Assembly: GCF_963921235.1 (NCBI RefSeq)
Contig: NC_086108.1
Coordinates: forward strand, 50,842,001 to 50,906,000
Source: Mobula hypostoma
Lineage: Eukaryota
Direction of reading: 5' to 3'
Length of the DNA: 64,000 nucleotides
Every line of letters starts with the position of its first letter. Within the stretch, counting starts at the first letter, position 1. The notes under the pieces were generated by a model. It was not told the DNA's origin. It worked only from the letters and a program-made list of their open reading frames with translations, and made no database searches. Positions 6,036 through 48,740 of this stretch are shown here, in pieces. The translations under genes were made by a program, and so were the position numbers.

Positions 6036-6548
6036 ACATAAAGAGTATAATTGCCCAAAATACCAGCTAATAAGTCAGAGGCAATCAAACGGTGGAGGAA
6101 ACTGGCCCTGATGTTTTCAATTATATATTTTCCATATAATTTTACATTATTTCAACCTCTTGCTTTTTTTACAGTTTGAATTGGAAGTACTGGTGGTGTT
6201 TCTCAGCTGTGGTTTCTTTTCGGAGAAGGATGGCATGATTGAGACCATTCTCCAAATCCAAGTAGGCATAGTTTGTAAACATTTCCTAAAGGAGTTCATG
6301 TCAATTAATGTGAAACTCATAAAGGGGGATTGATTCCATCTGACACACAGAGGCCAAGTGATGCAGATGAAAGCATGAGGTCAGCCTGAAGTTTGGTGAA
6401 TTTGTCAAAGACAAAGCGTATTGTACCTATAACTTTATGGTAAGTGGCAGGAAGATGCAGGTCAGCAAAGTTACACCTCAGTACTGCTGATTGTCATTTA
6501 TCACTTATTTTAATTGACCTGTTTCAAATAGGACAAATCAAATATTAG

Positions 6549-6743
6549 CAACTCACACAAAATACTGCAGGAACTCAGCAGGCCAGGCAGCATCCATGGA
6601 AAAAAGAAAAGTCGATGTCTCGGCCCGAAATGTCAGCTGTACTTTTCTCTATGGATGCTGCCTGTCCAGCTGAGTTCCTTCAGCATTGCGTGTGCCTTGC
6701 TTGGATTTCCAGCATCTGCAGATTTTCTCTTGTTTGTGTTTTG
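6549..6743. mobile_element. Penelope-derived short foldback element (inverted terminal repeat unit) with AAATATTAG TSD
   Basis: Arms cacacaaaatactgcaggaactcagcaggccaggcagcatcc and ggatgctgcctgtccagctgagttccttcagcattgcgtgtg; TSD 6540-6548 and 6744-6748 plus 7354-7357. Confidence 0.85.
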
Positions 6744-31059: not shown

Positions 31060-31800
31060 TAGAATCAGAGTTAAAATCAGGTTGATTATCACTGACATAT
31101 GATGTGAAGTATGTTGTTTCGAGGCTGTAGTACAATGAAAGAGATAAAAATTACTATAAATTGTGAAAGCAAATAAATAGTGCGACTGAGGAGTAATGAA
31201 ATTGCATTCATGGATTCATGACCATTCACATGTTCCTAACATGCAGAGTGTGGGTCTTCAGGCTCCAGTACCTCCTCTTCAATGGTAGTAATGAGAAAAG
31301 GGGCCCGTGATTGTGTGGCTAGGCACAGCTCAAACGCCAGCTGCAAATTCACCGATAACACCACTGCTGTGAGCAGAACCTCAGATTGTGTTGAAGAGGT
31401 GGACAGGAGTGAGATAGATTGGCTGGTTGAGGGGTGCTGCAATAACTTCACACTCAATGTCAGCAAAACTGAGAAGTTAATTGTGGACCTGAGGAAGGGG
31501 AAATCAGGAGAACACATCCCAAACAACAGGAATTCTGCAGATGCTGGAAATTCAAGCAACACACATCAAAGTTGCTGGTGAACGCAGCAGGCCAGGCAGC
31601 ATCTGTAGGAAGAGGTGCAGTCGACGTTTCAGGCCGAGACACACACCCCAGTTCTCATTGAGGGTCAGAGGTGGAAAGGGTGACCGGCTTCAAGTTCTTG
31701 GGTATCAGCATTTCAGAGGATCTGTCTTGGGCCCAGCCTTAATATGACCATGACAAAGACCTGACACTGCCTCTAATTCATTAGGAGTTTGAGAAAAATT
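31060..31800. mobile_element. Rex1/Babar pieces: minus-strand tail 31060-31300 and plus-strand RT 31300-31800, with a Penelope terminal insert at 31521-31640
   Basis: [26 protein letters not shown]; the insert is flanked by an ACACA(T/C)CCC duplication. Confidence 0.75.
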
Positions 31801-39830: not shown

Positions 39831-39971
39831 GATGCTAAGAGACAGTACAAATCCAAGGTCAACTCTTAGTGCAGCCATCAGCTGTGGCCGGGATTATACC
39901 TTATAATGGGTTATAAAATAAAGGCAGACAGCATCGCAGACGACAGCTTGACCCTTCCCAATGAACTCGCA

Positions 39972-40010
39972 CATTCCTGACGAAGGGGTCTTGGCCTGAA
40001 ACGTCGACTG
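39972..40010 (+). ncRNA. Minimal type-I hammerhead ribozyme motif (Penelope-associated)
   Basis: cauuc-CUGACGA-aggggucuuggccu-GAAA-cg-UC-gacug: both catalytic boxes intact, stem II possible, minimal ACGU stem III, stem I 4 of 5 pairs. Confidence 0.75.
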
Positions 40011-40105
40011 TACCTCTTCCTAGAGATGCTGCCTGGCCTACTGCGTTCACCAGCAACTTTGATGTGTATTGCTTGAATTTCCAGCATCTGCAGAATTCCT
40101 CGTGT
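39977..40105 (+). mobile_element. 129-bp Penelope terminal insertion with TCGCACATTC TSD
   Basis: TSD at 39967-39976 and 40106-40115; same young family as 31521-31640. Confidence 0.88.
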
Positions 40106-40369
40106 TCGCACATTCTATGTATGCTATAAACAGAAGGGATGTCACCACCCACTCTGATAGTCTCCAGTGTATCTCTTTCTGCAGTCACTATCATGGGCAT
40201 ATGATCAGTCTTCTGAAGAGTGAACCCTCAGCAAACATTGAGCTCAGATGGTGTCCCTGGCCTTGGCCTTAGACCCTTGTGCAGATCAGTTGGCAGGGTA
40301 TTTGCAGACATGTTTTAACCTCTCCCTGCTTCAGGCTGTGGTTCCCTCTGCTTTAAGAAGTCTACTATC

Positions 40370-45830: not shown

Positions 45831-45974
45831 AAGGGTGAATGTACACGGACTTTCCCCGGGCTTGGGGAATCAAGAACTGAAAGGCATAGATTTAAGATGA
45901 GAGGACAGAATCATCAGGAACCTGATAGGTCAGAGAATGGTCAGTATATGAAATGATCAATATACCTCTAAGCA

Positions 45975-47530
45975 ATACAAACAAAATGCCGGAGGAACTC
46001 AGCAGGTCAGGCATCTGCTATGAAAATGAATAAACAGTTAATCCTTCTTCAGGACTGGAAAGGGAGGGGGAAGATGCCAGAATAAAAGGTGGGGGGAGGG
46101 GAAGGAGGAGAGCTAGAGGGTGATAGGTGAGGCCAGGTGGGTGGGAAAGGTAAAGGACTGGAAAAGAAGGAATCTGATAGGAGAGGAGCATGGAACATAG
46201 GAGAAAGGAAAGGAGGAGGGGACCCAGGGGGAGGTGATAGGCAGGTGAGAAGAGGCAAGAAGCCAGAATGGGGAAAAGAAGAGGGAGTGGGAAGGAAATT
46301 ATTTTCTTACTGGAAGGAGAAATCGATATCCATGCCATCAGGTTGGAGGCTGCCCAGACAGAATATATGGTGTTGCTCCTCCGCCCTGAGGGTGGCCTCA
46401 TCATGGCACAAGAGGAAGCCACAAGAGGAAGCCATGGACTAGCATGTCGCAACAGGAAAGGGAATCAGAATTAAAATGCTTGGTCACCAGGAAGTTCCAC
46501 TTTTGGTGGATGGAGCGGAGGTGCTCGATGAAGCAGACCTCAATTTACGATGAGTCTCACCAACTCACCACATCAGGAGCACGGGACACAATAGACAACC
46601 TCTGCAGATTCACAGATGAAGTGTTGCCTCACCTGGAAGGACTGTTTGGGGCCCTGAATGGAGATAAGGAGGTAAATGGGCAGGTGTACCACTTGGGCTG
46701 CTTGCAGGGATAAGTGTCAGGAAGGAGATTAGTGGGGAGGGATGAATGGACAAGGGAATCACAAAGTGGGTGATCCATGCGGAAGGCAGAGGGGGAGGGA
46801 GGTAAAGGTATGTTTGGCAGTAGGATCCCTTTGGAGATGACGGAAGTTGCGGTGTTGATATGTTGGATGCGGAGGCTCATGGGGTGGTAGGCAAGGACAA
46901 GAGGAACTCTATCGCTGTCAAGAAGGTGAGAAGATGAGGTGTGCACCGACGTTTGGGAAATGGAGATGTGGCAGCATCAAAGATGGAGGAAGAACAACCC
47001 TGTTCTTTGAAGGAGGCTATCTCTGATGTATTGGAAAGAAAACTAGCATCCTGGGAACAGGTACAGCAGAGACGAAGGAACTGAGAAAAGGAAATGGCAT
47101 TTTTACAGGAGCTAGGGTGGGAATTGGTTGGTTTATAAAAGATGTTGGTTGACAGTTTTCTCCAGAGATTGAGACAGAGAGATCAAGAAAGGGAAGGGAC
47201 TTGTCAGAAATGGACTAAGTGAATTTAAGGGCAGAGTGGAAGTTGGAGGCAAAGTGGATGAAATTGACGAGCTCAGCAAGGATGCATGAAGCAGCACCAA
47301 TGCAACCATCAATGTAGCGGAGGAAGAGTTGGGGAGCGTTACTGGGGAAGCTTGGAACATGGACTGTTCGATATAGCCAAGGAAAAGGCAGGCATAACTG
47401 GGGCTCATGCAGGTGCCCGTGGCTACCCCTTGAGTCTGGAGAAAGTGGGGGAGTCGAAGGAAAAGTTGTTGAGGGTGAGGACCAGCCCTACAACATGGAG
47501 GAGGGGAACTGGTTGGTTCTTTATTGAGAA
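45975..47530 (-). mobile_element. Penelope-like element (RT motif B through GIY-YIG and 3' terminus), frameshifted
   Basis: MSPSYACLFLGYIEQSMFQ (RT), DRVPLVLAYHP linker, endonuclease region and terminal motif. Confidence 0.9.
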
Positions 47531-47599
47531 AAAAGCAGAGAGTTTAATGCCCTTTATCCAGTCACAGTTTCACTTGAAGTAATGTTTTGGATGACATTT

Positions 47600-48740
47600 T
47601 CTCTCATTTCTGTCAGATCATCAGAGGTGTACACCTTCAAAGCTTCATCTCTGCCACATCTGTTCCAGGATGACGTTTTCCTTTCCAAGACATCAAATTG
47701 ATATTGCCTTCACCCATATCTTCTCCATTTCCCGGACATCTATGCTCATCCCATCTTTCCATTGCCCGAAAAGGGTTAGAGTTCTTTTTGTCCTCACTTT
47801 CCACCCAATGAGTCTCCACATCCAACACATTATCCTCTGCAACTGCCATCCTCTTCAACGGGATCCTACTACCAAACTCGCCTTTGGCTTTCCACAATCC
47901 CCACCAATTCTCCGCCTTCTACACAAATCGTTCCCACCATGATTCCCTTGTCTCAGGGAATCATGTCCTACCAATGTCCTTCCTGACACATACCCCTGCA
48001 AGTGACAGAGATGCTACATCTCATCAACCTCCTCCCTCACCTCCATTCAGGACCACAAACGGTCCTTTCAGGTGAGGCAATACTTCACCAGTGAATCTGT
48101 TGCAGTTGTCTATTGCATCCATTGTTCCCAATGCAGCCTCCTCTACTTTGGTGAAACCCATCATAAATCGGGGGACCTCTATGTCAAGCACCTCCATAAC
48201 ATCTACCAAAAGTGGTATTTTCCTTGTGTGCAACCATTTTAATTCCTAACCCCATTCCTGTTCGACATGTCAGTCCATGGACTCCTCTTTTGCCACAATG
48301 AGGCAGGTAACAGGGTGGAAGAGCAATACCTCATATTCCATCTAGGTAGCCTCCAACCTGATGGCATGAACTTCGATTTCTTTCCCATAGTTTTTTCCTC
48401 CTCCTTCCCTCTTCTATTCCCTGCTCAGGCCTCTTACCTCTTCTTCTCACCTGACTTTCACCTGCCTTCTTCCTTTTATCCCATGGTCCATTCTCCTTTC
48501 TGATTAATTGATTCTCCTCCAGACCTTTACTTTTACCTTTCGCACCCACTTGGCTTTGCTTGTCGCCTTCTAGCTAATCCTCCTTCCCTTCCTCCCACCC
48601 TTTTATTCTGGCATCTTCCCCATTCCTTTCCAGTCCCAAAGAAGGGCCTTGCCCTGAAGCATCAACTTTTTCTTCATTTCGGAAGATGCCGCCTGACCTG
48701 CAGAGTTCCTCCAGCATTTTGTGTGTGCTGCTCTGCTTTC
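47600..48740 (+). mobile_element. Penelope-like element (linker, GIY-YIG, 3' terminus with decayed hammerhead)
   Basis: RVLFVLTFHPMSLHIQHIILCN and RVEEQYLIFHLGSLQPDGMN; terminal motif at 48630-48735. Confidence 0.9.

What the first reader, a model, noticed from the sequence alone, without database searches (positions are those of the whole stretch)
39967..40115. Hammerhead ribozyme with intact core in a 129-bp Penelope insertion, with stem I completed by the target site
Seen: the insert starts at the C of CUGACGA (39977) and continues aggggucuuggccu-GAAA-cg-UC-gacug. The left TSD supplies cauuc, pairing 4 of 5 with gacug where other copies have caguc. Established: Penelope-like elements carry minimal type-I hammerheads with a palindromic stem III that favours dimeric folding. 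Inference: this is the only copy in the window likely to still cleave, and microhomology with the target may have set the 5' junction.
Basis: partly seen in the sequence, partly recalled or inferred. Interest (0 to 1): 0.7.

Follow-up and report, generated by a model that had tools for sequence, protein, structure and literature searches.

The report
Penelope stub starting at ribozyme edge
This is a real 129-base stub of a very abundant Penelope-type jumping gene carrying its known minimal hammerhead ribozyme motif; this copy is predicted to be a weaker ribozyme than tens of thousands of its sisters, but it begins where a quarter of the sampled copy ends pile up, at the ribozyme's front edge, which likely marks where the copied RNA starts.

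Summary
Confirmed: a 129-bp insert (39977-40105) between 10-bp target duplications, with empty sites in two other organisms' contigs, and a minimal type I hammerhead whose core letters are intact. It belongs to an RT + GIY-YIG Penelope-like family (Neptune-type linker; 3.5-kb unit; 44,564 exact hits of one anchor). It is the only copy in the window with an intact core, but 46,499 genomic copies keep core plus native stem I. This copy has an extra G in stem II, no G10.1-C11.1 pair and a U·C mismatch in stem I; with its flanks stem I is predicted not to form, so cleavage is unlikely. The junction is not set by microhomology alone: 58 of 229 sampled arm ends lie at -5..+4 of the core (8.5-fold over background, peak -3/-4), many flush or with extra bases. 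Best reading (inferred): the enzyme starts inside an uncleaved RNA about 95 or 130 nt downstream and runs off its 5' end; microhomology only shifts the register, and target 'completion' of stem I is a by-product. The ribozyme is known; the pile-up was not in the papers searched, but this scan noted it before on other DNA.

The parts
39967..39976 (+). left target-site duplication (10 bp); its last two bases TC also match element positions -2 and -1 (microhomology)
   Evidence: empty site in runs X19 and X23
39971..39976 (+). target-derived 5' arm of stem I; pairs 5 of 6 with 40006-40011, U·C mismatch at the third pair
39977..40105 (+). 129-bp 5'-truncated Penelope-like insert: ribozyme plus the first ~128 nt of the repeat unit
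   Evidence: up to 98% identical to other genomic copies
39977..39983 (+). hammerhead core CUGANGA (C3-A9), intact
39984..39997 (+). stem II region, one G longer than in sisters; no register gives G10.1-C11.1 (A-U or G·U instead)
39998..40005 (+). GAAA, palindromic ACGU (40001-40004, intermolecular stem III) and predicted cleavage nucleotide C40005
   Evidence: layout as in PMC4209133
40006..40011 (+). 3' arm of stem I
40073..40105 (+). approximate 'tail' between the family's two 3' start zones (inverted arms begin at +82..+106 by alignment, mostly +92..+101; tail arms at about +128..+140)
   Evidence: tail concept from PMC11167929
40106..40115 (+). right target-site duplication
39950..39957 (+). 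target flank complementary to the core end and stem II; predicted to sequester the ribozyme in a read-through RNA

Best explanation
The insert is a short copy of a Penelope-like retroelement, likely made when the element's enzyme started copying inside an uncleaved RNA about 130 nt downstream of the ribozyme core and ran off that RNA's 5' end just before the core; the copy's own ribozyme is predicted to be inactive in place. Shown: the insertion with TSD and empty site; the family with RT and GIY-YIG; two 3' start zones; a sharp excess of 5' ends at -5..+4 with a peak at -3/-4; copies read through the cleavage site. Inferred: the RNA 5' end is a transcription start at A(-4) in an initiator-like YYANWYY motif. 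The cDNA end, complementary to AGTC, annealed to the target end ATTC (3 of 4), which set the register within a few bases. Because those bases are also the 5' arm of stem I, a target that anneals automatically 'completes' the stem. The extra G and the C-to-T changes likely came later or during copying.
For: Full-length tandem units of 3511-3528 bp (6 of 7 loci; L166 shorter) with an intact 1043-aa frame in L160, L163 and L164; RVT_1 and GIY-YIG hits. Survey of 182 copies picked by 3' anchors: 58 of 229 scored ends at -5..+4, rate ratio 8.5 versus +5..+74 and 7.2 versus -75..-6; 0 of 5000 constant-hazard simulations reached this in any 10-nt window. The excess holds in tail arms (34 of 126 at risk), inverted arms (24 of 51) and inserts without an inverted arm (9 of 63, against 10 in the seven downstream bins together). 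Genome-wide exact counts: 2,027 with non-G at -3 (3.9%), 4,064 with non-A at -4 (8.0%), 4,093 with non-T at -5 (up to 8.8%); only 5 of 30 loci are point mutations. Flush junctions at G(-3) without microhomology: L260, L265, L266, L276/L277, L279. A G not in the TSD before A(-4) in 20 simple inserts versus A in 14 (p=0.028 against 0.41), as a copied cap would give. In vitro, an anole PLE starts internally at two sites, extends both strands and uses unprocessed RNA (PMC11167929).
Against: No RNA end was observed: only contigs were available. The cap-G excess is weak and post hoc (all simple inserts: 24 G versus 21 A, p=0.065), and three G cases elsewhere in that sample are plain T-to-G changes. 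The peak also lies in the loop of a predicted hairpin and on an AG resembling a 3' splice site. The two arms of one insertion are not independent. Set A (100 copies) comes from the first 5.4 Mb and set B (82 copies) from the first ~49 Mb of one contig. A small excess at the cleavage site (8 ends at +26..+30, p=0.024 uncorrected) hints that some templates were cleaved. In D. virilis the start lies 121 nt (46-nt exon plus 75-nt intron) upstream of the intron end that abuts helix I (PMC2377424; PMC4209133), not at the ribozyme edge.
Confidence: 0.6

Rival explanations
1. The pile-up comes from a hairpin (-19..+8, loop -6..-1) that forms in read-through RNA or in the cDNA. Nicking in the loop, or fold-back and annealing at its arms, gives ends at -5..+4 without any transcription start there.
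For: The hairpin is predicted with probability 0.93 in L160 RNA carrying 20-60 nt of upstream sequence. The peak lies in its loop. Hazard stays raised at -6..-25, most in inverted arms. Several inverted joints use the GTC/GAC and CCTTC/GAAGG self-complementarity (L081, L123, L216, L234).
Against: A pause at a stem would leave ends at its 3' base (about +8), not in the loop. Simple inserts with flush junctions need no fold-back. Insertions whose inverted arm is far longer than the tail arm (L082, L172, L240) cannot be fold-backs of one cDNA. Weak G excess at -5.
Confidence: 0.2
2. The AG at -4/-3 is a 3' splice site (branch-like TACTAAC/TACTCAC and a pyrimidine tract upstream). Templates begin there as a 3' exon or splicing by-product, as the D. 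virilis intron ends at helix I.
For: Sequence resemblance; precedent in PMC4209133 and PMC2377424.
Against: None of 11 copies joined near the core to other element sequence has its break at a GT donor, and no donor recurs. No recurrent exon among the extra bases. Ends include the AG itself (-4, -3) more often than they begin at -2.
Confidence: 0.1
3. One reading: microhomology with the target set this junction, and the target-completed ribozyme still cleaves a host read-through transcript as a dimer.
For: 2-nt exact and 3-of-4 microhomology. Core letters intact; 5 of 6 stem I pairs. Gap to competing folds in short constructs close to that of sisters.
Against: The junction sits on a family-wide peak that mostly lacks microhomology (28 of 41). 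Four or more of five stem I pairs occur in 33 of those 41 inserts. Extra G and no G10.1-C11.1; stem I probability 0.0 with flanks. Such ribozymes cleave poorly even as dimers (PMC4209133) and the anole one needs the element's protein (PMC11167929).
Confidence: 0.1

Closest known systems
Minimal type I hammerheads (min-HHR) in pLTRs of metazoan Penelope-like elements (Cervera & de la Pena 2014, PMC4209133; parts 1-2 of 4 read)
   Same: Intact core, unpaired base after A9, short stem I, palindromic 2-nt stem III needing a dimer, thousands of lone motifs from truncated copies.
   Different: This copy has lost G10.1-C11.1, has an extra G, and takes its stem I 5' arm from the target. The parts read report no survey of 5' junctions.
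Endonuclease-bearing PLE insertions, Neptune/Nematis type (Craig et al. 2021, PMC8557442; passages read; Arkhipova et al. 2013, PMC3846280; passages)
   Same: RT plus C-terminal GIY-YIG, CX4CXXC linker, partial tandems, inverted 5' copy, one-sided 30-40-bp tail, TSDs, occasional microhomology junctions.
   Different: The passages read describe frequent 5' truncation but no preferred end at the ribozyme edge. Clade placement here rests on the linker motif only; no tree was built.
Anolis Poseidon element PAc (Frangieh et al. 2024, PMC11167929; parts 1-2 of 4 read, supplement text searched without hits)
   Same: Two internal start sites bounding the tail, both strands extended, uncleaved RNA as template.
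   Different: Different clade. Its ORF starts at stem II, whereas here the long frame begins about 85-170 nt after the core. Run-off at the RNA 5' end was shown only on truncated in vitro templates, not as a genomic hotspot in the parts read.
Non-LTR retrozymes (Li et al. 2026, bioRxiv 10.64898/2026.07.22.740005; part 1 and passages read)
   Same: PLE-derived, non-coding, carries a type I hammerhead.
   Different: Retrozymes are tandem arrays of units; this is a single TSD-flanked stub with one motif and no sign of spreading on its own.

Membership tests
EN+ Penelope-like element | single ORF with RT and C-terminal GIY-YIG in the family's full-length copies | tested here: met
   1043-aa frame in L160, L163, L164; RVT_1 E=1.7e-5 and GIY-YIG E=4.3e-4 on L122, both below Pfam's curated cut-offs
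EN+ Penelope-like element | partial tandem (pLTR), inverted 5' copy, one-sided tail | tested here: met
   units of 3511-3528 bp in 6 of 7 loci; 76 inverted arms starting at +82..+106 among 182 copies
Neptune/Nematis clade | CX2-5CXXC zinc-finger-like linker between RT and EN | tested here: met
   CX4CXXC in the L122 frame; definition from PMC8557442
Neptune/Nematis clade | phylogenetic placement of the RT | not tested
   no named reference proteins were fetched
PLE minimal type I hammerhead | core C3-A9, G12-A14, A15.1-U16.1, H17 | tested here: met
PLE minimal type I hammerhead | palindromic positions 15.2-16.2 | tested here: met
   ACGU at 40001-40004
PLE minimal type I hammerhead | one unpaired base after A9 and a G10.1-C11.1 pair | tested here: not met
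   this copy gives A-U or G·U in all three registers, and its 4-bp register leaves two unpaired bases; 29 of 43 sisters keep C at that column. Met by the family, decayed in this copy.
PLE minimal type I hammerhead | uninterrupted stem I of 4-5 bp | tested here: inconclusive
   2 bp, a U·C mismatch, then 3 bp; predicted not to form with flanks
PLE minimal type I hammerhead | self-cleavage as a dimer or with protein | not testable with these tools
   needs a bench assay
Rfam hammerhead families | covariance-model match | tested here: not met
   0 matches at gathering score in the window; 0 at E<=10 in 39900-40150
non-LTR retrozyme | tandem units each with a complete hammerhead | tested here: not met
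   single copy between TSDs

The most novel reading that the evidence does not exclude
Penelope-like elements make a 'strong-stop' product: the mRNA starts with a cap four bases before the hammerhead core, the enzyme initiates at the internal sites ~95 and ~130 nt downstream, and thousands of 100-135-bp run-off cDNAs are inserted. An upstream hairpin keeps the 3' copy of the ribozyme switched off in read-through RNA, while only the 5' copy can fold. Genomic stubs then map the transcription start and show that the ribozyme is normally uncut when copied.
Probability: 0.45. Interest if true: 0.6.

Novelty: new member of a known kind. Interest (0 to 1): 0.35.

Why it matters
The single copy matters little: it is one of more than 50,000 with an intact core and is more damaged than most. 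The family pattern matters more. The role of PLE hammerheads and the origin of PLE tandem and inverted structures are open questions (PMC8557442). A sharp pile-up of cDNA ends just before the core, rather than at the cut site, says that templates are mostly uncleaved. It also gives a base-precise prediction (RNA start at -4/-3) that one CAGE or RACE experiment, or an in vitro TPRT assay, can test.

Tried and rejected
Rfam found nothing. The bare core pattern is at chance level in the window. Folding z-scores of the motif are unremarkable (-0.51 to +0.59). No RNA holder on record was listed; all eight run layings were contigs, which cannot show RNA ends, strand or cleavage. The unique flanks 39870-39943 and 40129-40239 had no cover in the two guessed-RNA runs, which is no evidence either way. 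No splice-type joint at the core appeared. My first label 'Poseidon' was dropped on finding the zinc-finger linker. A cap-G for a start at G(-3) was not seen: 31 of the first 100 listed places have G at -4 (counted by hand). The G excess at -5 in the raw listings (63 of 100 each, counted by hand) was discounted because inverted joints and point changes inflate it; only simple inserts were tested. Rows set aside in the survey: 8 set-B copies duplicating set A, 29 of 182 tail arms censored as internal deletions, duplications or locus edges, inverted matches not starting at +80..+110, and the last 10 of 100 places, which were not fetched. The 30 loci were not used for junction statistics because the query selects for full cover. 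The host gene context was not resolved: 179 open frames were listed but not scanned. Literature searches for a junction hotspot returned no paper stating one; most subscription papers are not searched, Lunse et al. was seen only as a reference entry, bioRxiv supplements are closed, and figures of PMC11167929 (Fig. S2) could not be seen and may bear on this.

Full report
Observation. The window reads TCGCACATTC at 39967-39976 and again at 40106-40115, enclosing 129 bp. Contigs of two other organisms carry the empty site with one copy of the duplicated stretch: X19 record 10 joins 39966 to 40106, and X23 record 16 skips from the 3995x-3996x flank to 40109. The insert opens with CTGACGA, a stem II region, GAAA, CG, TC and GACTG, so C40005 is position 17. 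The target arm pairs 4 of 5, or 5 of 6, with a U·C mismatch at the third pair. The motif alone is not beyond chance and Rfam does not see it; its identity comes from the family. Below, position 0 is the first C of the core (39977).

The family. A 32-base anchor from the insert's 3' part has 44,564 exact hits in the 3.5-Gb own genome; the variant closest to this copy has 5,329. Long copies lead upstream into a frame with RT and GIY-YIG hits. Of seven loci with an upstream ribozyme, six have units of 3511-3528 bp, three with an intact 1043-aa frame; L160 is a 99.7% identical tandem. A CX4CXXC linker before the nuclease fits the Neptune/Nematis type as defined in PMC8557442; no tree was built. 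The insert is the ribozyme plus the first ~128 nt of the unit, the usual 3' end of such copies.

Is this copy special? Within the window, yes: of 18 profile hits only 39977 passes a core-plus-stems descriptor, and five older copies aligned to it have a broken core or GAAA. Genome-wide, no: 46,499 exact matches keep the core and the native AGTC arm, and 68 of 98 surveyed copies reaching -4 have an intact core. This copy has an extra G found in 0 of 118 surveyed copies, and T where most sisters have C at columns 14 and 19. No register gives G10.1-C11.1, a pair listed as conserved in PMC4209133. The modelled active dimer is -5.5 to -7.9 kcal/mol with 7 nt of flank, against -12.7, -12.9 and -17.9 for L007, L160 and L013. 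Relative to competing folds the difference is small (best gap 12.4 versus 11.6, 12.6 and 10.2), so a short construct could still cleave weakly. With 10, 30 or 60 nt of real upstream flank, stem I has probability 0.0, and with 30 or 60 nt the target at 39950-39957 pairs with the core end and stem II. These models ignore tertiary contacts. Published min-HHRs cleave poorly even as dimers, and the anole one only with protein. Whether the locus is transcribed is unknown.

Junction survey. Copies were chosen by 3' anchors, blind to their 5' ends: all first 100 places and 90 of the first 100 (82 after removing overlap), all on contig C1. Ends were mapped against two real long copies. Of 182 tail arms, 153 gave an end and 29 were censored; 76 inverted arms were added. 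Fifty-eight of 229 ends fall in -5..+4, 8.5 times the downstream rate and 7.2 times the upstream rate; the window was chosen after seeing the data, but 0 of 5000 simulations reached it anywhere. The peak is -3 (15), then +2 (11, inverted joints sharing GTC), -4 (9) and -2 (7). Inserts without an inverted arm show it too (9 of 63 at risk). The cleavage site has 8 ends at +26..+30 (p=0.024, uncorrected). Whole-genome counts agree: 3.9% of intact-core copies break off at -2, 8.0% at -3 and up to 8.8% at -4, including roughly 1-2% point mutations (5 of 30 loci).

Microhomology. This copy shares TC exactly with the element and ATTC versus AGTC 3 of 4 at the 5' joint, and one T at the 3' joint. Among 41 TSD-resolved simple inserts starting at -2..-4, 13 have microhomology, 9 are flush and 19 carry extra bases; 33 have four or more of five stem I pairs, mostly from element bases (this sample is enriched by the patterns used). 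So microhomology tunes the register but does not make the peak. Since the element's bases -4..-1 are the 5' arm of stem I, any target that anneals to the cDNA end also 'completes' the stem. Given that TC may be element-derived, two more matches in three positions is about a 16% event (my calculation).

Mechanism. Inverted arms begin at +82..+106 and tail arms at about +128..+140; many simple inserts run from -3 or -4 to about +95. This matches the two internal start sites and two-strand extension shown for the anole element. Insertions whose inverted arm is much longer than the tail arm need two independent cDNAs. Both kinds stop at the same place, and both contain the cleavage site, so their templates were uncut. 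The simplest cause is an RNA 5' end. TTAGTCC fits the initiator consensus YYANWYY (consensus recalled) with A at -4. A G outside the TSD precedes that A in 20 simple inserts against A in 14 (p=0.028; 24 versus 21 overall, p=0.065), weakly as a copied cap would give (cap copying recalled from LINE-1 work). A hairpin at -19..+8 buries the core in read-through RNA (probability 0.93) and is absent from RNA starting at -8 or -4, where stems I and II form at about 0.5. It is both the main rival cause of the peak and a possible off-switch for the 3' ribozyme. Splicing is the other rival, but 0 of 11 element-to-element joints use a GT donor.

Comparison and novelty. The ribozyme type, the insertion anatomy and microhomology joints are in print. 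A preferred 5' end at the ribozyme edge was not found in searches. Earlier notes of this scan report the same pile-up in this and other genomes; I read them after completing the survey, they are not independent support, and they prompted only the re-check of the clade. Verdict: a real but ordinary and partly decayed copy of a known kind, sitting on a family-wide feature of moderate interest. Interest 0.35.

Noticed in passing
L160 (G000:C2:157228400-157235400), positions -19..+8 of the core: A hairpin pairs the pyrimidine tract with the core (probability 0.93) whenever 20 nt or more of upstream sequence is present; it would keep the 3' ribozyme off in read-through RNA.
   Followed up: partly
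L160, L163, L164: Intact 1043-aa frames; L160 is a 99.7% identical tandem, so the family is very young or still active. The core reads ACG where older window copies read ATG, and the long frame begins about 85-170 nt downstream of the core.
   Followed up: partly
L231, L382, L389, L415, L066: Copies starting near -4 are joined directly behind another head piece ending at +33, +45, +128 or +157, as if the enzyme jumped template after running off.
   Followed up: no
window 45970-48732: Older Penelope-like insertion, about 70% like the young unit, with RT/EN remains on both strands (47482-46317 minus, 47718-48381 plus) and decayed ribozymes near 46053 and 48636.
   Followed up: no
window 31521-31640, minus strand: Young sister copy (96.6% to L160) truncated at about +11, lacking the first half of the core, with an apparent 10-bp TSD carrying one mismatch.
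   Followed up: partly
window 6543-6735: Older head-to-head two-arm insertion of a related subfamily with both arms ending inside stem II.
   Followed up: no
window 39950-39957: The target flank, 10 nt before the TSD, is an exact 8-nt complement of element +4..+11; probably chance (about 1-2% allowing for choice of word, my estimate), but it could have helped capture the cDNA.
   Followed up: partly
G000:C5:220460965-220468715: Four matches spaced exactly 2,572 bp apart: a tandem array that carries one truncated copy per unit.
   Followed up: no
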